DNA of 62,997 bases, counting the filler, from Rhabdomonas costata (taxonomy: Eukaryota): NCBI GenBank assembly GCA_019059605.1. It is 45 parts of 45 records of this genome, joined end to end, with 100 filler letters (N's around TTAATTAATTAA, not from the genome) between each part and the next. Parts side by side here need not be neighbours in the genome. Positions count along the whole stretch, not along the records: positions 43,479 to 44,782 come from JAHMHO010020034.1; positions 44,883 to 46,174 come from JAHMHO010020035.1; 43 more parts are not named here. One strand, given 5' to 3'. The notes under the pieces are model-generated. The model had not been told where the DNA came from, ran no database searches, and saw only the letters and a program-made list of their open reading frames with translations. Positions 1,404-58,792 of this stretch are shown here, one piece after another. Numbering within the stretch: the first letter of the stretch is position 1; every line of letters begins with the position of its first letter. The position numbers and the translations under genes are program-made.

Positions 1404-3141
1404 GGGGGTTTGGCGGGAACTGACCATGGACTACTGGACACAGTGGCTTTGCATCGTAGGAAAACCCATTGCTGCTGCGTGCCACTGCGCGTTGCGGTGA
1501 GAATGCTCAGTGGATGAGCAAATGGCACGTTTACTCTCTTATGTGTGTTCGGCAGATTCCGGACTGCAGCGAAGCGCTGTTTGAGGTGAACTTCAACGAG
1601 CTGTCCTACGAATTCGTCACGGTATCTTTTGTTTGTGTAGCAATTGTGCATATGTGTTTGGTATGGATGAGTCGCGGAAACATGTGATACGTCGACCCTC
1701 CTTGGCGTGGGATGGCGTGGGACGTTGGGACTGGCGTGACATTCCTTCTTTTTCAACTGTAAAAAGAAAACTGGAAAACTGGATGGATTTTTTGTTTTTA
1801 TAAAGTATGTTAAAAACTGTTACAAAAAAGTGAATGTTACGCTTTATGAAGGAATTGGCTCCACTGAATTGTTAGCCGGCTGGCTTTGAAAACTCACTGT
1901 GGAGTGATCGGCACACCCACGTCCAAGTGCCGCAGTGCTCTACCCATGTTGCGGTTTCGCACGGCAGGGGGAGAGCCGTCGGGCCGGCTCCGAGCCCCCT
2001 GGAGCGGTAGCCTACCCGCCCTTGCAGGAGCTTTCTCTTCAGTAGCTGTAAAGCCGAGGAGGAAAGACAGAGAGAGCCTCCTCCCCTTCCGCTACACTCC
2101 CCTTCTTCCTTCGGATTTTTTCGGGCGCTCATTGAACATGCCTCCTCCCCGATTTCTCTCCGCTCCGCTGGGCTTGTGCCTGTTTTTGGTTTTGCATGTG
2201 ATCCGGGGTTCACTCCCCTTCCACCACCCAGCACCTCTACCCGTCTCCCTCCCACTGCATAGCGCCTTCGGGGGTGGCCTGCTTGACCCCCCCGTCGTTG
2301 TTTTTAGAGCAAAACTTTTGCTGTCCAACTGTAAACTTTGTGACTTTGTGTTCCGTCCTGCTTTTCCAGAAATGTGGCGGCAGTTTTGTCCTATGAGTGG
2401 CGGAATTGCGATCTGGCTGCGATCAGAAATTCACCGCAATGATTCATACTCATTCGGGCGTTTTTCACATTCGAAATTCCTTATTGGTATCCTTGGTATC
2501 ACGGAGGGTCGGAGTGGGGGTCAAAGGCTTGAATTTAATTTCGCTGGAAAGCACAGTTAAGGATTCCTGGATTTTTGATGCCTGTTTTCCTTTTATTTTC
2601 TCCCTCAACGTTTTTGCTTCCACTTCACAGGTGTGGACTGAATATTCTCTTTTCCTGAGAAGTTTCAGTCCACACCTGTGAAGTGGAAACAAAAACACCA
2701 ACCCACNNNNNNNNNNNNNNNNNNNNNNNNNNNNNNNNNNNNNNNNNNNNTTAATTAATTAANNNNNNNNNNNNNNNNNNNNNNNNNNNNNNNNNNNNNN
2801 NNNNNNTATTACTCTTATTCGTTGCTTGTGAGAAAGTCGTGCTGGCATGGTGCACCACTCACTGGACGGTTGGGTTCTTAGTGGTCGGAGTTTGACAAGC
2901 AGTGTTATGGTTATTTCTATATGAACTTAGTGTTGGACAAACCCTCAGGAGTAAACTTTGTTGTTTTTGGCCTATTTGACCTATCTAACTCGCGATCGAA
3001 ATGTTCCTAATATAATCTACATGGAACATGACAAATAGAGTGAATATATAGGCATAAACTCTGTCCAGGATCGCGCATTCACTATGTAACTTTCTTCGTT
3101 TGCTTGCCCGCATTGTTTTCTGTTCCCTTTTCCGTGCACAG

Positions 3142-4109
3142 AAACTCCAAAACGTTCCTTCCTATCGAGCTTACCGCCAGCTTGGGTTACGCCGAAGCCA
3201 CCGCCGCACTTCTCTCGGCTGGTTCCCACTTTGGACACGCGTTGTGGGAGGCCTCTGTCCAGGGCCATGCGGATGTCGTTAGTGTTCTGCTGGAGGCTGG
3301 GATGAGCCCATGCGCCCGTTTGCGCGGCGAGCGAAGCGCACTGCACTTTGCAATCCTGTGCGCTCGTTCTGAAGTGGGCAAGGTCCTCATCGAGCGTGGT
3401 GCCACCCTGCAAGCACCGCTTCCCGAAGACCTTCGGGAAAATCTTCTTCCCTCAGACAGCAACCTGCTGCACCTGGCAGCTGTACTGGCCACCAAGGAGA
3501 CCGTCCCGCTGGTGCAAGCACTCTACGCCAAGGACCCCAGTTTGGCTCAGGCCCGAAACGCTGACGGCAAGCTGCCCGTGGACTACGCGCCAGACTTCTT
3601 GCACTCCGCTTTCCTCACTGGAGAACAACTGACGACGGTGCAGCGTCTCACCGGCCAAATGCTACGAACGCACATCTCAGACTCCACAGACACCGCAGAG
3701 CTGGAGGCTGAGCGGGTGGCTTTCGCCCAGGCCGCGCGGGCCGCAGTCACCGGGGGGGCATCTCTGAACCTCACCGATCGTCGCGGGTGGACCCCCCTGG
3801 TGAGATGTGTGATCTACGGTGACCTTTCCTCTGTACGCCTCCTTCTGGAGTGTCAGGCCGACCCGAACAGCCTTTCTTCCTCTGGCCACAGCCCCCTGAT
3901 GTGGGCCCAGCACTGTGGGCACCGAGAGATCCAGGACTGCCTGGTGGAAGCCGGGGCCACCCTCTCCCCGGGGTGCCGGGCCGGGCTTGACCGCCTGGAG
4001 CATGCGGCTGCCGGTGCCGATAAAGAGACACTCTCCTTACTTCAGCCCAGGCTAGCCTCTGAAGATCTCCTGACAGCCCCCAGCACGGCTCGTGGAGAAC
4101 CCAAACCCC
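3142..4109 (+). CDS. Ankyrin-repeat protein (long exon, 3' truncated)
   Basis: Several ANK motifs (SALHFAI, NLLHLAA, GWTPLVRCV, GHSPLMWA, ADPN) in a ~320-aa open frame after a CAG acceptor. Confidence 0.9.
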
Positions 4110-28063: not shown

Positions 28064-29325
28064 TGTGGGGGTTGCCCCTCACTTGTATTTCTGGGAACAT
28101 GAGGGAAAGCAGGAGCCATCACCTGTCGGGCTTTCCAGGGTCAATGAACAGGAGGCGGCCATGGTGTGTAGTCTTGCGTGCTACCTTGTTGAGTGCGCCG
28201 TTCCACGTCGGTAGATTGCCATTCTGACGCCATATAAAGGGCATCTGATGCTGATTCGTAAAAATCTTTTGAAGGAAAAGCCATGGAGTGAGAAAAGACT
28301 TCTATCTTTCGGTCACTCGAATCCTGATGAGTGCTTTGTTTCCATCGTGGACCGTTTTCAAGGCGATGAGGCGGATGTCGTCATCATCTCTCTCGTTGTA
28401 GACAACGGCTCAGCCACACCCTTTGTGAAACTAGTTAATCGAGTGGTTGTTCTCTTGAGCCGGGACCGCCTGGGAATGTACATTCTCGGCAACACGAGCT
28501 ATTTTGCAAGCTCACATGACAACTTGGGCCATTGGTTGCAGATCTTTGATATGCTGAAAAAACCCACCTGCTCTGACTCACAAGAAAAGGAAGTTCCTTC
28601 CTACACGGGGCCTCGGCTTGGCAGACGCCTACCGCTGCGGTGTCAGGAGCACCCGAACTCAGTTTATTTCGCCTCGAACGAGAATGAAGTCCGGACGGGA
28701 TTCTGCGACGTGATCTGCAGTCACATCCTCCCGTGTTTCCACCCTTGCGGGCGCCGCTGTCACTGGCCATCGACTACACACAATACCAAATGTCAAGAGA
28801 AAATTCTTTCCGCATGCGCAGAGCATCCACCAGAATGCTTGAAATTGTTTGAGAACGCCAAGCTAACCTCATCTGAGGCTTCTCTACAGAAGGCCGTTCC
28901 CATCTTTTGGTGCGACGTCCCGGTTTCTGTTAAACTTCCGAGCTGCTCGCACCAAATACAGTGTCATGTCATGAGGCGAAGGCATTCAAACAAAACAAAA
29001 AGCCTTACCACGAATGCCGAGAGCCAGCTCCGGACCTTTACCGTCGAGCAACGTGCAATCATCCTCTGCAATGCAGTTGCACAGAGTACAGGAAATACCA
29101 ACACACTCCAGCCGCAGTCCCGCGTTGTGTGGAAAACGTGGCTTTCAAGAACCCAGAGTGTGGGCTCCAGTGTACCCTGCCCTGTTTTCTTCGCGCAGAG
29201 CTGGAAGAGATGGCCGATAAGACTGCTGTGACTGATGTGGAAGAGTCCATTCTTCCACTTCCCTTCATCAGCGTCCCCCAGATGAATTGCTGCCCCTTTC
29301 CACCTCAGTCTTGTATCACCGGAAG
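28064..29325 (+). pseudogene. ZNFX1-like SF1 (UPF1-type) helicase C-terminus plus NF-X1-type zinc fingers, disrupted
   Basis: NEQEA...YLV...IAILTPY, VDRFQGDEADVVIISLV, NRVVVLLSR, GMYILGN, then CxxxCxxxLPCxHxCxxxCH. In-frame TAG at 28212-28214 and a frameshift near 28960. Confidence 0.85.
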
Positions 29326-43478: not shown

Positions 43479-44683
43479 GGTTTTTTTTCCATTTTACAAT
43501 TTTCATTTTTATATTTTTCTATTTCAATATCTTTATTATTATTTATTCTCAATGTTTCTAATTTTTCATTTTTGTTTAATTTTTCTATTTCAATGTCCTT
43601 ATTTATTCTCAATGTTTCTAATTTTTCATTTTTGTTTAATTTTTCTAATTCAATTTCTTTATCATTATTCATTTTTAATGTTTCAAGTTCTATATTGTTT
43701 GTTATTCTATTTTCTAATTCTTTAATTCTATTGTCTTTTGTTACTATTGATTGTAACGGCATATTATCAACTAAATATTTTAAATATTCTATTACTTGAT
43801 CGATGTCAAAATTTTTATTTACATTTAGTATTTCGGTTTGTTTCTTATTTTTTATTTCGATTGTCGTTAATATTTTTTTAACATTCATTTCCTTCTTAAA
43901 TATCTCTTCAACTTTACTATTATTGTCACATTCAATAACAAAAATTATTTCAAAATTTTCAAACATTAATTTATGTTCTTTATAATCGCGTCTATAAATA
44001 TCATTTGATATACCAAATTTATAATACAATTCACCATTATAAAAAAAGCAACTAATGTAAAATACATTTTTTTTATGAAATGTGTACAACATATTCTCAT
44101 CATAAAACGATTTTGTTTTTGGTTTACTAGATGATGATGGTTGAGGTATAATTTGTGTTTGTTGTGATTGATAGGATCCTGTTCTAAATACTTTATCTAT
44201 AATATTGTATACCCAATTACGTAATGTTTGAGCTTCACTTTTTTTACTTTTAACTGCTAATTCAATTACACCCAAGTGATTTATATATTTTGTTGTACCT
44301 TCGTTTCCTTTTACTTTTATATTTTTTGATAGTAGAATTCCGCTACGATCAAAATTCGACAAAATATTTTCTAATATTTTGATGTTGTCAACATATACAT
44401 GATTAGATATTGCCTCTCTCGTGTTCTCATAACCTAAAAATTCTGCTATATTTTTACCTTTGAACCATATTATATTACTATCTAAATCAATAATATGACT
44501 AAATGTTACATTTAAAAATGTAAACAAAGTTGTTTGTATATATCGTAATTCGTCTATCCTCGTTTTGTATTCATTTATTTTTGTTTCATCATATAATATT
44601 AAATTATCAAGATGATTAAGATGATTAAGATCATTTTCAATTTTAATGTTATCATAAGGAATTGGTTGTTCACTTATATTTTC
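43479..44683 (-). CDS. Bro-N domain protein with T5orf172/GIY-YIG-like domain and coiled-coil repeats; AT-rich, virus-like; both ends truncated
   Basis: WFKGKNIAEFLGYENTREAISNHV...YINHLGVIELAVKSKKSEAQTLRNWV...FRTGSY (Bro-N), then FYI...YKFGIS....R..EH...F...FVIECDNN..VE..FK...TE. Intronless; the frame stays open up to the fold-back junction near 44683. Confidence 0.85.
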
Positions 44684-45171
44684 TTATGATAACATTAAAA
44701 TTGAAAATGATCTTAATCATCTTAATCATCTTGATAATTTAATATTATATGATGAAACAAAAATAAATGAATACACAACAAANNNNNNNNNNNNNNNNNN
44801 NNNNNNNNNNNNNNNNNNNNNNNNNNTTAATTAATTAANNNNNNNNNNNNNNNNNNNNNNNNNNNNNNNNNNNNNNNNNNNNTTTGGTGTTGTTGGGTTT
44901 GTTCATCTCTGTGTTCTCAGAATTGCTGTGTTTAACAAACTCGAACTACATTTCTTTCAGTGTAATATTCCTGCATGCGATGATGTTGCTCTGCTTTTTC
45001 TTGGGTGGTGAGAAAGCCATTTGAGAAAAAGGAAACCTGTTTATCAAAATATGGGACAAGTATGTTAGGAAAAAGCCGAACGAACCATTAGCGGCAAGCT
45101 TGCGCCTATTCAAGCCCGACCTTGACCTTGACGAGAGAAGTGTAAGGTGGAGGGAGGGAGAGCTCGCGTAC

Positions 45172-49081: not shown

Positions 49082-50383
49082 CCAGCAGCAGCAGGGTGAG
49101 CCCGCGGAGGAAGATACACTGCACGTCCTCCAGGCGATCGGGGAGAGTCTTGTGGTGCTCCCGCCACCGCAACACCCCCCAAAGCACGGAGACCCCGGCA
49201 TAGGTCAGGAACAGAAAGGAGTACCACACCACACAGCTCCCTGCGAGGACGTGAAGCAAACCACGGCAGACCGCACCAAACTGCAAAGCAGACCATTGCA
49301 CACAGAAGCCCAGCCGAAAAAACCAGTAAAAATACCTTAACGGACGATACCTCATCACTCCACCGGAAGTCTTGAAGACACAATAGCGAGAAAACCTCGT
49401 TTGCCACATCACGTTGGGGACCATCGGAACCTCGCAAGACACGTCCCCACGTAGATTACGAAAGTTCCCACAAAGGTCACTCCTGTACAAGGGCTTGGGG
49501 AACGTGATCGTTTGGCTGGAGCCGGTTCACGAAATGGAGCAGAGGGGAAACGAATGAGCATCCAAATCTCGGGAGTCAGGGATTAAAATCCGATAGCAAA
49601 TTGTTACCCCGTGGTGTAAGTTTGTGAGCATGCCGATCGCCACAAATGCACAAATGCGGCCCGCAGAAATGAGAATGAAGGGGCTCTGAAAAACCGTTTT
49701 AGCAAACAGCGTGGGGGTCCCTGCAGTTAGATTGACTGACTCGCGTCCTTCACATCGGCAATCCTGGCCAACACAGGGTTTTCCAGAGGAGCACATCACT
49801 AAGCTCTTTTCCTAATCATCCTAGTTACTTCCCACCACCGCAAAAAAAAAGCGCTTCGTACTGAGTGAGGGCATGAGGATGTAGTTCTGCTGGAGTATTT
49901 CAGAGTCGAATGAAAACCCCAGCAGGCCCGAACTGGAGCGGGCAGTCCCCACCTCAGCTGCGGTGGCTCCGACGTTCAGAGTAGAACAGTAACTGAGCCA
50001 AACATACAAAATAACAGCAAAATAACAGCTGACATGAATTCCTTTGCCTCAGGCCAGCAACACCCAGCGACGCCTTCGGGGAGGACTCCCAAGCACACCA
50101 GCAAGCCCAAGGAGGCGTATAGCAGGGGCCCCGCTGAGTCCCTTTCGATGGTTATGTTAGGGCCCGCCTGGAACAGCAGGGCGTAGAACGTCAGGTAGTA
50201 GATCACCAAGGGGATGAACGTCCGCCACTGCCCGTGTACCAGCCGCTGCTGAACCCCCAGCAGCAGCAGGGTGAGCCCGCGGAGGAAGATACACTGCACG
50301 TCCTCCAGGCGATCGGGGAGAGTCTTGTGGTGCTCCCGCCACCGCAACACCCCCCAAAGCACGGAGACCCCGGCATAGGTCAG
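49082..50383. repeat. Circularly permuted contig: exact 127-bp terminal direct repeat, 1175-bp unit
   Basis: 49082-49208 is identical to 50257-50383. Confidence 0.95.
49082..50383 (-). CDS. Multi-pass membrane repeat protein; two exons per 1175-bp unit
   Basis: Exon B runs 49240->49082, continues through the junction 50256->50099 (CAG|...|GTGTGC). Exon A is 49889-49862 (CAG|...|GTACGA). Total 345 nt, phases compatible, about four hydrophobic segments. Confidence 0.6.
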
Positions 50384-57899: not shown

Positions 57900-58780
57900 T
57901 CACATAAGGCGGTCAAGGTTATCCTGACCATCCGCGAAGCCTTGCTCCGCGGCCCTCCGGTAAAGCTCTGCTGCCATGGAGAGGTCTTCGTCAACTCCTT
58001 TGCCCTGCTCGAAGCACAGCCCAAGGTTGTTCTGCCCGGAGGCGTCGCCCTGCTCAGCGGCTTCCTGATACAACTCGATCGCCTTGGAGAGGTCTTTGCC
58101 AACCCCCTTGCCGTGCTCATAGCAGCTCCCCAGGTGGCTCAGTGCCTTTGTGTTGCCCTGCTCGGCGGCCTTTCGGTACTGCTCCGCGGCCTTGACCAGG
58201 TTGCTGCAAACCCCGATGCCATGCTCGAAGCAGGTGCCCAAATTGAACTGCGCCATTGAGTACCCTTGTTGGGCGGCCTTTTGAAACAGCTCTACCGCCT
58301 TACAGAGATCTTGGGCAACCCCCTCACCATGCTCATAGCAAAAACCGAGGTGGTTCTGCGCTTGGGCGTTGCCTTGCTCGGCGGCCTTCTGAAAAAGCTC
58401 TACCGCCATGGAGACGTCTTCATCAACCCACTTGCCCGCGAAGTAGAACCACCCTAGACAATACTGTGCCGTCCCGTTGCCCTGCTCCGCAGACTTTTGG
58501 TAGAGCCCAATCGCCTTAGAGAGGTCTTTGGCAACCCCCTGGCCCCACTCATGACACTGACCCAGGCTGAACTGTGCGGAGGCGTTGCCCTGCTCGGCCG
58601 CTTTCTGGAACATCTCTGCTGCCTTGGCGAGGTCCTTGGCAGCTCCCCTGCCGTGGAAATAGCACTCTCCAAGACTGAACTGTGCGGAGGCGTTGCCATT
58701 CTGGGCGGACTGCTGGTACAGCTCTTTCGCCTTGGCAAGATCTTTGGCAATCCCCGCTCCAGTTGCGCAGCACAAACCCA
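57900..58780 (-). CDS. Sel1-like repeat protein (about eight 36-aa repeats), 5' truncated
   Basis: Repeated AQFSLG.CYE.G.GVAKDL.KA.ELFQKAAEQGN units in one open frame. Confidence 0.95.
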
Positions 58781-58792
58781 AGATCGGAAGAG
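58781..58792 (+). other. Untrimmed Illumina adapter
   Basis: AGATCGGAAGAG at the contig end; a partial AGATCGG also lies at 26553-26559. Confidence 0.95.

What the first reader, a model, noticed from the sequence alone, without database searches (positions are those of the whole stretch)
43479..44782. AT-rich Bro-N / T5orf172-like contig: possible giant virus or endogenous viral element
Seen: this is the only strongly AT-rich contig among mixed-GC ones. It is intronless, with a ~400-codon frame holding Bro-N, a YKFG-type GIY-YIG/T5orf172-like domain and ~60-nt tandem repeats (LETLRINKDIEIEKLNKNEK). Established: such Bro-N fusions are typical of large DNA viruses (Mimiviridae, irido-, entomopox- and baculoviruses) and some phages. 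Inference: DNA from an AT-rich NCLDV co-amplified with, or integrated in, this protist. A giant virus in a euglenid-type host would be notable.
Basis: partly seen in the sequence, partly recalled or inferred. Interest (0 to 1): 0.72.

Follow-up and report, generated by a model that had tools for sequence, protein, structure and literature searches.

The report
Giant-virus Bro-N nuclease gene fragment
A stray 1.3-kb AT-rich contig carries the middle of one gene of a DNA-binding nuclease family typical of mimivirus-like giant viruses, but nothing here ties it to the organism that makes up the rest of the assembly.

Summary
The window is 45 separate ~1.3-kb contigs joined by N spacers. Contig 43479-44782 has 21.5% GC; the other 44 have 45.5-57.3%. 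Its minus strand has a 401-codon open frame, 44683 to 43481, cut at both ends. The frame holds a Bro-N domain (Pfam E 1.3e-15), then a divergent T5orf172/MUG113-like GIY-YIG domain, then a long helix encoded partly by 2.8 copies of a 60-nt repeat.

The closest proteins (47-51% identity) are unnamed metagenome proteins. All four relatives with readable neighbouring genes lie on giant-virus DNA. Structural neighbours are mimivirus, Bodo saltans virus, megavirus and klosneuvirus proteins. Phage records match only the Bro-N part.

So a giant-virus origin is well supported. Free virus, integrated element or contaminant could not be told apart: no genome or reads were available. The "euglenid host" could not be checked.

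The 100-nt fold-back at the contig's right end is an artefact type also seen at the ends of 5 of the 44 other contigs. Giant viruses in Euglenozoa already have precedents. This is a new member of a known kind, of modest interest.

The parts
43479..44782 (.). Stand-alone 1304-nt AT-rich contig (21.5% GC), set off by N spacers on both sides
   Evidence: The other 44 contigs of the window have 45.5-57.3% GC.
43481..44683 (-). 401-codon open frame, cut at both ends. No start codon lies upstream of Bro-N and the frame runs off the left contig end.
   Evidence: Shuffles gave at most 182 codons. GC at codon positions 1/2/3 is 0.317/0.195/0.142. Relatives carry an extra N-terminal Cys/His-rich stretch and a longer C-terminus.
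44201..44485 (-). Bro-N domain (residues 67-161 of the 401-residue frame), the presumed DNA-binding module
   Evidence: Pfam PF02498 E 1.5e-15 and 1.3e-15. PHROGs anti-repressor families, best E 5.5e-15. The AlphaFold model is confident over residues 51-168.
44126..44161 (-). Ser/Gln/Pro-rich linker (residues 175-186), predicted disordered
   Evidence: pLDDT below 50 for residues 175-186; sequence.
43754..44071 (-). T5orf172/MUG113-like GIY-YIG nuclease-type domain (residues ~205-310). Family-wide conserved residues are Y209, K222, G224, R232, H237, E259.
   Evidence: Family-invariant columns. Among 60 relatives, 15 hit T5orf172, 8 hit MUG113 and 1 hit GIY-YIG. Domain model pLDDT 94.5. The best solved-structure matches are GIY-YIG nucleases, but at weak Z: 7wme_A Z 5.6, Slx1 Z 4.8. 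BFVD top match is a mimivirus Bro-N protein, E 2.5e-14, TM 0.92.
43481..43753 (-). C-terminal long helix (residues 311-400), a probable coiled coil, cut by the contig end
   Evidence: A single helix H311-400 in the full-length model.
43508..43684 (-). Tandem repeat, period 60 nt, 2.8 copies, encoding 20-residue units of the helix
   Evidence: TRF score 243, 82% matches. Direct-repeat family D1.
44562..44779 (.). Terminal fold-back: arms 44562-44661 and 44680-44779 (100 nt, 98% complementary, 18-nt loop). Most likely an amplification or assembly artefact that replaces the true 5' part of the gene.
   Evidence: There are two mismatches, at left-arm positions 44565 and 44659. The same kind of terminal self-inverted match occurs in 5 of the 44 other contigs.
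44324..44354 (-). In-frame imperfect hairpin (11 pairs, one mismatch) in the codons of the variable Bro-N loop, just 5' of the NEGTTKYIN motif codons. Weak evidence.
   Evidence: the 96-nt segment has z -3.98, and 1 of 200 shuffles folds as well; 2 of 50 windows in the gene are as stable. It is not notable on a perfect-stem measure.

Best explanation
The contig is a short fragment of an AT-rich giant-virus genome (Nucleocytoviricota), most likely mimivirus-like (Imitervirales). It holds only the internal 401 codons of one gene of a large, often multi-copy family.

The family's build is an N-terminal Cys/His stretch (missing here), a Bro-N DNA-binding domain, a disordered linker, a T5orf172-like GIY-YIG nuclease domain and a coiled-coil tail.

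Inferred mechanism: Bro-N and the tail bring the protein, probably as an oligomer, to specific DNA. The GIY-YIG-type site (Tyr209, Lys222/Gly224, Arg232, His237, Glu259) nicks or cuts it. The gene would then behave as a free-standing, homing-endonuclease-like selfish or inter-virus competition gene. Less likely, it is a nuclease-derived DNA-binding regulator.

Shown: the composition outlier, the open frame, Bro-N, homology of the middle domain to T5orf172-bearing giant-virus proteins, and the giant-virus context of relatives. Inferred: nuclease activity, oligomerisation and selfish behaviour.

The contig is short because assembly stopped in a tandem repeat at one end and in an artefactual fold-back at the other. 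Whether the DNA was a free virus, an integrated element or a contaminant is not resolved. The confidence given is for the giant-virus origin of the fragment; the mimivirus-like placement (about 0.6) and the nuclease mechanism (about 0.5) are less sure.
For: Real gene, foreign composition:
- 21.5% GC against 45.5-57.3% in the 44 other contigs.
- A 401-codon open frame against a maximum of 182 in 2000 shuffles.

Domain evidence:
- Bro-N E 1.3e-15.
- Among 60 relatives scanned: Bro-N 60/60, T5orf172 15/60, MUG113 8/60, GIY-YIG 1/60.
- Invariant Y209, G224, R232, E259 and nearly invariant K222, H237, D253, N254, E284 across 60-67 sequences.
- Domain model pLDDT 94.5, with strand-strand-helix-strand-helix order.
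- Solved GIY-YIG nucleases take VIA ranks 1-3, 5, 6, 30 and 44 of 48,161 chains (7wme_A Z 5.6, rmsd 2.9 over 85 residues).
- hhalign of the family profile against a Pfam-positive T5orf172 stretch of L003: E 1.5e-4, probability 51%.

Giant-virus origin:
- 3 of 3 IMG/VR relatives found with alignment A1 are on giant-virus DNA. L001 and L002 are GVMAG contigs. L003's Bro-N+T5orf172 gene lies next to Capsid_NCLDV, E 1.5e-59.
- L005 (22.6% GC, from a 27.8-kb contig) carries EsV-1-7 Cys motifs, AsnRS, E7R and dCMP deaminase beside a homologue. That homologue's middle domain is 33% identical to the window's (E 2e-21).
- BFVD: 34 matches at E<=0.001. All 25 that carry an organism name are large DNA viruses of eukaryotes, led by mimivirus (34% identity, TM 0.92) and Bodo saltans virus. 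Phage rows begin at rank 37.
- Atlas: the nearest clusters are T5orf172/Bro-N clusters labelled Nucleocytoviricota (a lead only).
- Tree: the window sits in a 9-row clade inside a 73-row clade that also holds the L005 protein, with L002 and L003 outside it.
- A pattern scan of 185,579 bacterial and archaeal species found no relative.
- 37 phage records match only residues ~42-171; none covers 80% or more of the query.

Artefact reading of the fold-back: 6 of 45 contigs, this one included, have a self-inverted match reaching within 10 nt of a contig end. One more contig has identical 127-nt ends.
Against: - The contig holds one truncated gene and no hallmark gene. Bro-N and T5orf172 genes are mobile and also occur in phages, polinton-like viruses, baculoviruses and poxviruses (PMC3493329, PMC12721341, passages). 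A single such gene is therefore a weak taxonomic marker.
- The window's own sequence does not reach Pfam thresholds for T5orf172 or MUG113.
- Foldseek found no PDB match at E<=0.001. The VIA Z-scores (5.6 and below) lie in the range the tool calls common.
- BFVD holds only viral proteins, so it cannot tell virus from cell.
- The closest relatives (P0001-P0004, 47-51% identity) and the other four proteins of the window's 9-row clade have no readable context. One, P0009, is labelled 'prophage antirepressor-like protein' by its source.
- The genome-contig scan used only two peptide patterns.
- The tree is FastTree only, midpoint-rooted, with just three context-known rows.
- No nuclease or binding activity was tested.
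Confidence: 0.8

Rival explanations
1. The fragment is part of a giant endogenous viral element integrated in the nuclear genome of the ~50%-GC organism, not a free virus or contaminant. It assembled poorly because of low coverage of AT-rich DNA and paralogous repeats. (This is a sub-case of the giant-virus origin, so its confidence is not exclusive of the best explanation.)
For: - It is compatible with everything shown for a giant-virus origin.
- The contig has the same size class and the same terminal fold-back artefact as the host-GC contigs, so it went through the same library and assembly.
- Low-GC (25-37%) giant endogenous elements inside a ~51%-GC euglenid genome are in print, with lower read coverage than their flanks (PMC12455990, passages).
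Against: - Neither contig end has a junction to host-GC DNA.
- The frame is intact over 401 codons, with every family-invariant residue kept and GC3 of 14%. That shows no erosion or drift towards host composition, whereas the published elements are described as eroded.
- The published elements are Asfuvirales, while this protein's nearest named neighbours are mimivirus-like.
- Host identity is unverified.
Confidence: 0.3
2. The gene belongs to a smaller eukaryotic virus-like mobile element (a polinton-like virus, virophage or transpoviron-like episome), not to a giant virus itself.
For: - Bro-N and GIY-YIG genes are reported in polintons and polinton-like viruses, including Bro-N fused to a nuclease (VRR-NUC) in Oxyrrhis (PMC12721341, passages).
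- L001, a 6.5-kb record, has exactly a Bro-N+VRR_NUC gene beside an SF1 helicase.
- Such elements are often AT-rich and multi-copy (recalled).
Against: - The relatives that share both domains and have readable neighbours lie beside an NCLDV major capsid gene (L003), on a GVMAG contig with dNK and glycosyltransferases (L002), or beside AsnRS, EsV-1-7 and E7R (L005).
- The 25 organism-named BFVD neighbours are proteins of giant-virus genomes.
Confidence: 0.08
3. It is a phage or prophage antirepressor gene from an AT-rich bacterium (symbiont or contaminant) in the sample.
For: - PHROGs anti-repressor families match at E down to 5.5e-15.
- 37 phage records match.
- One clade-mate, P0009, is named 'prophage antirepressor-like protein' by its source.
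- T5orf172 fusions exist in tailed phages (PMC8263062, passages).
Against: - All phage matches cover only the Bro-N part (residues ~42-171) at 28.6-35.5% identity. None of the 37 records covers 80% of the query.
- No relative was found in one genome each of 185,579 bacterial and archaeal species by the subfamily patterns.
- The middle domain's named structural neighbours are giant-virus proteins down to rank 28, with phages only from rank 37.
- The 'antirepressor' names are automatic labels that follow from Bro-N.
Confidence: 0.04
4. It is a cellular gene, or an old viral insertion, of an unrelated AT-rich eukaryote that contaminated the sample.
For: - MUG113 and T5orf172-like domains exist in eukaryotes.
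- One Atlas row at rank 24 is a diatom-labelled KilA-N cluster.
- A single 1.3-kb contig at odd GC is what trace contamination looks like.
Against: - The nine best Atlas sets are 92-100% viral.
- The frame is uninterrupted for 401 codons.
- No cellular context was found for any relative.
Confidence: 0.05

Closest known systems
Bro-N / T5orf172 proteins of Mimiviridae-type giant viruses (BFVD rows A0A0G2Y9E3 of Acanthamoeba polyphaga mimivirus, H2ECT1 of Megavirus courdo7, A0A2H4UUN4 and A0A2H4UTH5 of Bodo saltans virus)
   Same: - Same order of a Bro-N domain followed by a T5orf172-like domain.
- The middle-domain model superposes on the mimivirus protein at TM 0.92, rmsd 2.0 over 145 columns, 34% identity.
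- AT-rich genomes and multi-copy families.
   Different: - Only 24-34% identity in the middle domain to the named isolates.
- The closest proteins (47-51%) are unnamed metagenome sequences.
- The window copy lacks both ends.
- Whether the named proteins carry the same Cys/His head and coiled-coil tail was not examined.
Phage T5orf172 nucleases, e.g. ICP1 Gp88 (Odn) and related putative homing endonucleases (PMC8263062, passages read)
   Same: A GIY-YIG-superfamily T5orf172 domain joined to a separate DNA-binding domain that gives specificity. This is the model for the proposed mechanism.
   Different: - The DNA-binding part there is RepA_N-like, not Bro-N.
- The host is a bacterium.
- No detectable sequence match of the window's middle domain in 50,697 phage records at E<=0.001.
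Baculovirus BRO proteins and phage Bro-N antirepressors (Pfam PF02498)
   Same: The Bro-N domain itself: 58 bits against a cut-off of 25.6.
   Different: Those proteins pair Bro-N with other C-terminal modules (e.g. KilAC). Here it is paired with a GIY-YIG-type domain and a repeat-encoded helix.
Solved GIY-YIG nucleases: At-HIGLE (7wme), Slx1 (6seh, 7cq2), I-TevI (1ln0), T4 EndoII (2wsh)
   Same: - Best fold matches of the middle domain: Z 5.6, 4.8, 4.8, 3.1 and 2.9.
- The conserved Tyr, Tyr/Lys-x-Gly, Arg, His and Glu fall on the matching strands and helices of the model. The mapping to catalytic roles rests on recalled knowledge of I-TevI.
   Different: - Identity is 12-17%.
- Z-scores are below the level the tool regards as clear.
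- Foldseek found nothing.
- The motif reads YKFG rather than YIG.
Giant viruses of Euglenozoa already in print: Bodo saltans virus (PMC5871332) and the eight endogenous elements of Euglena gracilis (PMC12455990)
   Same: Low-GC viral DNA (25.3%; 25-37%) against hosts of ~50% GC, which is the same contrast as in this window.
   Different: - The contig (21.5% GC) is lower than any published region-wide value.
- The Euglena elements are Asfuvirales, whereas this protein's named neighbours are mimivirus-like.

Membership tests
Bro-N domain (Pfam PF02498) | Score at or above Pfam's gathering cut-off over most of the model | tested here: met
   58.2 bits against 25.6, model positions 8-93 of 96. 60 of 60 relatives also match.
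T5orf172 (PF10544) / MUG113 (PF13455), GIY-YIG clan | The window's own sequence reaches the Pfam gathering cut-off | tested here: not met
   No T5orf172 row at E<=1 for the ORF. The domain alone gives MUG113 at 16.1 bits against 22.3. It is therefore called 'T5orf172-like' and not filed in PF10544.
T5orf172 (PF10544) / MUG113 (PF13455), GIY-YIG clan | Homology to proteins that do match the models | tested here: met
   Of 60 aligned relatives, 15 match T5orf172 (best E 6.5e-6), 8 MUG113 and 1 GIY-YIG at E<=0.01. L002 and L003 homologues pass the cut-off at 35.6 and 30.9 bits against 20. hhalign of the family profile against the L003 T5orf172 stretch gives E 1.5e-4, probability 51%.
GIY-YIG nuclease superfamily | The three-stranded sheet with flanking helices of the GIY-YIG fold | tested here: inconclusive
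   The model (pLDDT 94.5) has strand-strand-helix-strand-helix order. GIY-YIG nucleases take the top three VIA ranks, but at Z 5.6-4.8. Foldseek against the PDB found nothing at E<=0.001.
GIY-YIG nuclease superfamily | Conserved catalytic set (Tyr of GIY, Tyr/Gly of YIG, Arg, His or Tyr in helix 1, Glu in helix 2) | tested here: met
   Y209, G224, R232 and E259 are invariant. K222 and H237 are conserved in 90% or more of 60-67 family members, and all are present in the window copy. The assignment of roles is by recalled analogy to I-TevI.
GIY-YIG nuclease superfamily | Metal-dependent DNA cleavage | not testable with these tools
   Needs biochemistry.
Nucleocytoviricota genome (free virus) | Core genes (MCP, PolB, A32 ATPase, VLTF3, RNA polymerase) on the same molecule or bin | not testable with these tools
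   The contig holds one gene. Only relatives' contexts could be read. All four with readable neighbours are giant-virus DNA: L001 and L002 by their GVMAG record names, L003 by the capsid gene beside the homologue, and L005 by its gene content.
Giant endogenous viral element | A physical junction between viral and host DNA | tested here: not met
   Both contig ends are AT-rich. One ends in the tandem repeat and the other in the fold-back. No sequence is shared with any other contig of the window. Absence from a 1.3-kb contig does not exclude integration.
Free-standing homing endonuclease gene | Presence/absence polymorphism at a defined target site, and cleavage of the empty site | not tested
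   No flanks are available. Multi-copy occurrence is only hinted: P0001 and P0002 list the same longest contig length, as do P0007 and P0010.

The most novel reading that the evidence does not exclude
The fragment comes from a mimivirus-like (Imitervirales, Bodo-saltans-virus or klosneuvirus-type) giant virus that infects, or has recently entered, the ~50%-GC protist of this assembly. If that protist is a euglenid, this would be a second viral lineage interacting with euglenids, distinct from the published Asfuvirales elements and still carrying intact genes. It would also carry the in-frame hairpin of the Bro-N loop noted elsewhere in this scan.
Probability: 0.15. Interest if true: 0.55.

Novelty: new member of a known kind. 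Interest (0 to 1): 0.25.

Why it matters
If the link to the organism were real, the contig would flag a giant virus, or a recent viral insertion, in a protist lineage with few known viruses. It would also give an entry point, the low-GC contigs of the assembly, for recovering the rest.

On its own it adds one truncated member to a large family of giant-virus Bro-N nuclease genes: 259 cluster representatives at E<=1e-30.

There is a practical lesson for the scan. The windows of this assembly are strings of unrelated short contigs, and about one contig in eight ends in an artefactual fold-back.

Tried and rejected
Steps that could not be done:
- Whole-genome binning and a hallmark-gene search: no genome is held for the window.
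- Searching the record behind L005 for the capsid family: the record is not held.
Cluster look-ups gave no accession and only one name.

Searches that found little or nothing:
- IMG/VR with the five closest sequences found nothing.
- IMG/VR with seven clade members found one Bro-N-only match in a 236-kb record.
- Foldseek against the PDB: no match at E<=0.001.
- The family profile against PDB sequences: only a coiled-coil M protein at E 0.2.
- Rfam on the whole window: no match.
- Pfam on the ten longest frames of the other contigs gave only ankyrin, Sel1 and AAA_12. This neither confirms nor excludes a euglenid.
- Earlier scan notes by place and by sequence: nothing.

Readings rejected:
- The fold-back as a viral terminal hairpin or a real head-to-head gene pair. 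It lies inside the reading frame and would leave two headless gene copies. The same feature occurs at the ends of 5 of the 44 host-GC contigs.

No print search was made for this exact protein. One search (Bro-N, palindrome, hairpin, Mimiviridae) returned no paper that treats a hairpin inside Bro-N genes.
Full report
**What the window is.**
The 62,997 bases are not one locus. They are 45 contigs of 1283-1306 nt, strung together with N44-TTAATTAATTAA-N44 spacers. The finding's coordinates, 43479-44782, are exactly one contig of 1304 nt. Its GC is 21.5%, and the other 44 contigs range from 45.5 to 57.3%. No whole assembly is held for the window. So everything below rests on this one contig and on relatives found elsewhere.

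**The observation.**
- The minus strand is open for 401 codons, from 44683 to 43481. The other five frames hold 19-79 stops.
- In 2000 shuffles of the contig the longest open frame had a median of 65 codons and a maximum of 182.
- GC at the three codon positions is 0.317, 0.195 and 0.142.
- Pfam finds Bro-N at E 1.3e-15, 58.2 bits against a cut-off of 25.6. PHROGs returns 11 families, 9 of them labelled anti-repressor, best E 5.5e-15.
- Tandem Repeats Finder reports 2.8 copies of a 60-nt unit at 43508-43684.

- First, the gene is cut at both ends. There is no ATG between the last upstream stop and Bro-N (ORF listing falls back on a TTG at 44527), and the frame runs off the left contig end. Relatives have a further N-terminal Cys/His-rich stretch and a longer C-terminus.
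- Second, the YKFG domain is not detectable at Pfam thresholds in this sequence alone. No T5orf172 row appears at E<=1. MUG113 scores 16.1 bits against a cut-off of 22.3.
- Third, the right ~120 nt are an inverted copy of the neighbouring 100 nt.

**The fold-back.**
- The arms are 44562-44661 and 44680-44779: 100 nt, 98% complementary, with an 18-nt loop. The two mismatches are at left-arm positions 44565 and 44659, one near each end of the arm.
- The reading frame stays open through the left arm and the loop. It meets its first stop three bases into the right arm.
- If real, the structure would be two headless gene copies lying head to head.
- As a control I compared all 45 contigs with themselves and each other. 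Seven have a self-inverted match. In six the match reaches within 10 nt of a contig end: the contigs starting at 1404, 4210, 19645, 28064, 43479 and 61696.
- One more contig (49082) has identical 127-nt ends, which is the mark of a graph assembler closing a loop (recalled knowledge).
- Five of the 44 host-GC contigs thus show the same terminal fold-back. I read it as an amplification or assembly artefact, not a viral hairpin.
- Together with the tandem repeat at the other end, it explains why the contig is so short.

**The middle domain.**
- A profile of the window protein and six first hits was run against 1.84 billion cluster representatives. It found 30,792 proteins at E<=0.001, 11,837 at E<=1e-10 and 259 at E<=1e-30. 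The best ones match across both domains and the start of the tail.
- Of the 150 listed, I aligned 59 with the window protein. Scanned one by one, 60 of 60 have Bro-N, 15 have T5orf172 (best E 6.5e-6), 8 have MUG113 and 1 has GIY-YIG at E<=0.01.
- Y209, G224, R232 and E259 are invariant. K222, H237, D253, N254 and E284 are conserved in at least 90%.
- An AlphaFold model of residues 185-330, built with 67 sequences, has mean pLDDT 94.5 and strand-strand-helix-strand-helix order.
- Foldseek found no PDB match at E<=0.001.
- VIA-align against 48,161 chains put GIY-YIG nucleases at ranks 1-3: At-HIGLE 7wme_A at Z 5.6, rmsd 2.9 over 85 residues, and Slx1 6seh_C and 7cq2_A at Z 4.8. Further GIY-YIG entries stood at ranks 5, 6, 30 and 44, the last two being I-TevI and T4 EndoII. 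These Z-scores are in the range the tool itself calls common, so the fold test is suggestive only.
- hhalign of the family profile against a Pfam-positive T5orf172 stretch (L003) gave E 1.5e-4, probability 51%.

I therefore call the domain T5orf172-like and place it in the GIY-YIG superfamily. I do not file the window sequence in PF10544.

**The whole protein.**
The full-length model has mean pLDDT 83. Its parts are:
- residues 1-32, disordered;
- residues 51-168, a confident Bro-N domain with a weaker loop around 111-127;
- residues 175-186, a disordered Ser/Gln/Pro linker;
- residues 199-307, the nuclease-type domain;
- residues 311-400, one uninterrupted helix encoded in part by the tandem repeat.

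**Where relatives live.**
- The closest proteins, P0001-P0004, are 47-51% identical over 68-79% of the query.
- IMG/VR gave three relatives with alignment A1. L001 and L002 are contigs of giant-virus MAGs. In L002 the homologue passes the Pfam cut-offs for both Bro-N and T5orf172, and it sits among MSV199, HNH, glycosyltransferase and deoxynucleoside kinase genes.
- In L003 the Bro-N+T5orf172 gene lies beside an NCLDV major capsid gene (Capsid_NCLDV E 1.5e-59) and a Ulp1/I7-type protease.
- JGI metagenomes gave 16 loci. The only long one with both domains, L005, is from a 27.8-kb contig and has 22.6% GC. It carries a protein with seven EsV-1-7 cysteine motifs, an asparaginyl-tRNA synthetase, RNase T, a poxvirus E7R-like protein, dCMP deaminase, DUF6940 and a CAP protein. 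Its homologue's middle domain is 33% identical to the window's, E 2e-21.
- So all four relatives with readable neighbours are on giant-virus DNA. Two are so by record name and two by gene content.
- In a FastTree tree of 80 rows, the window protein sits in a 9-row clade with P0009, P0008, P0007, P0010 and P0001-P0004. That clade lies inside a 73-row clade which also holds the L005 and L004 proteins. L002 and L003 fall outside it. None of the nine clade members has readable context.
- The BFVD fold search gave 34 matches at E<=0.001. Twenty-five carry an organism name and all are large DNA viruses of eukaryotes. By my recalled taxonomy, 23 are mimivirus-like, one is a phaeovirus and one is an iridovirus. 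The list is led by a mimivirus Bro-N protein (E 2.5e-14, TM 0.92, 34% identity) and two Bodo saltans virus proteins. Phage rows begin at rank 37. BFVD holds only viruses, so this ranks viruses against each other and says nothing about cells.
- The Atlas look-up points the same way, as a lead only.

**Tests of the bacterial rival.**
- tblastn against 50,697 phage records found 37 records. All 20 listed rows cover only residues ~42-171 at 28.6-35.5% identity, and none of the 37 covers 80% of the query.
- A pattern scan of one genome each of 185,579 bacterial and archaeal species found no relative, although it used only two subfamily patterns.

**What it most likely is and does.**
The contig is a fragment of an AT-rich giant-virus genome, probably mimivirus-like. 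It carries one truncated member of a large Bro-N/T5orf172-like family.

By analogy with characterised T5orf172 proteins, I infer a DNA-binding nuclease. In phage ICP1, Gp88 is a nuclease whose separate N-terminal domain sets its target (PMC8263062, passages read). Bro-N is described as DNA-binding (PMC12721341, passages read). On that basis, Bro-N and the oligomerising tail would choose the site and the GIY-YIG-type centre would nick or cut. That would make it a free-standing homing-endonuclease-like or inter-virus competition gene, of the kind discussed for Bodo saltans virus (PMC5871332, passages read).

The catalytic residues are intact, which fits an active enzyme, but no activity was tested.

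**What stays open.**
Whether the DNA was a free virus, an integrated element or a contaminant cannot be decided. There is no host-GC flank. No sequence is shared with other contigs, and no reads were available. The intact frame and the 14% GC3 argue against an old, eroded insertion.

The other contigs gave only ankyrin, Sel1 and AAA_12 matches and no Rfam hit.

**Novelty.**
- Bro-N and T5orf172 are listed among NCLDV gene families with varied architectures (PMC3493329, passage read).
- Bodo saltans virus (25.3% GC, host ~50%) infects a kinetoplastid (PMC5871332, passages read).
- Eight giant endogenous viral elements of 25-37% GC, placed in Asfuvirales, are described in the ~51%-GC genome of Euglena gracilis (PMC12455990, abstract and passages read; its supplements could not be seen and may list gene content that bears on this).

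A low-GC giant-virus fragment in a euglenozoan assembly is therefore not new in kind. What could be new is a mimivirus-like lineage, distinct from the Asfuvirales elements. One mobile gene cannot establish that.

**In passing.**
I tested the stretch just 5' of the codons of the NEKNxIYIN motif at 14 anchor sites, in 12 loci plus the window.
- In 10 of 14, at most 8 of 54 (window: 50) same-size windows in the gene folded as stably.
- Clear GC-rich stems of 7-11 pairs occur in L005, L010, L012 and L016.
- The window copy has only an imperfect AT-rich stem at 44324-44354. The 96-nt segment has z -3.98, and 1 of 200 shuffles folds as well. It is unremarkable on a perfect-stem measure.
- Local Gly/Pro codon content may contribute, and I did not control for it fully.

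Noticed in passing
window 1-62997: The window is a string of 45 unrelated contigs of 1283-1306 nt, joined by N44-TTAATTAATTAA-N44 spacers and apparently sorted by length. Neighbouring 'genes' across spacers have no positional meaning.
   Followed up: yes
window contigs starting at 1404, 4210, 19645, 28064, 61696 (and 43479): Terminal self-inverted matches of 41-247 aligned nt reach within 10 nt of a contig end in 6 of 45 contigs. This looks like an amplification or assembly artefact class of this data set.
   Followed up: partly
window 49082-50383: The first and last 127 nt of this contig are 100% identical in direct orientation. The contig is therefore a closed loop or a tandem unit of 1175 nt.
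   Followed up: no
window 57903-58790 (-), 3044-4108 (+), 28215-29228 (+): Host-GC contigs carry long open frames with eight Sel1 repeats (E 3.5e-74), ankyrin repeats (E 1.1e-19) and the end of an AAA_12 helicase domain (E 2.5e-12). The Sel1 contig is internally repetitive.
   Followed up: partly
L005 10125-10153; L010, L012, L016 (second Bro-N gene), L008, L009; window 44324-44354: In many giant-virus-like Bro-N genes a hairpin lies in frame in the codons of the variable loop, just 5' of the NEKNxIYIN motif. Different stem sequences occupy the same spot, with perfect stems of 6-11 pairs. This agrees with the earlier scan note e1-624622. The window copy has only a weak AT-rich version.
   Followed up: partly
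L001 242-1060: A giant-virus MAG contig encodes Bro-N fused to a VRR_NUC nuclease domain beside a 1276-residue SF1-type helicase. The same fusion was reported as new in Oxyrrhis polinton-like viruses (PMC12721341, passages).
   Followed up: no
L005 9923-11539: The giant-virus-context homologue adds C-terminal helix-turn-helix domains of transposase type (HTH_28 E 6.9e-16, HTH_Tnp_1) after the Bro-N and GIY-YIG-like parts. So the family swaps its tail modules.
   Followed up: no
P0001-P0005 (N-termini): Full-length relatives begin with a conserved Cys/His-rich stretch (C-x-H ... C ... C-x2-H) that Pfam does not name. It is missing from the window copy because of the fold-back.
   Followed up: no
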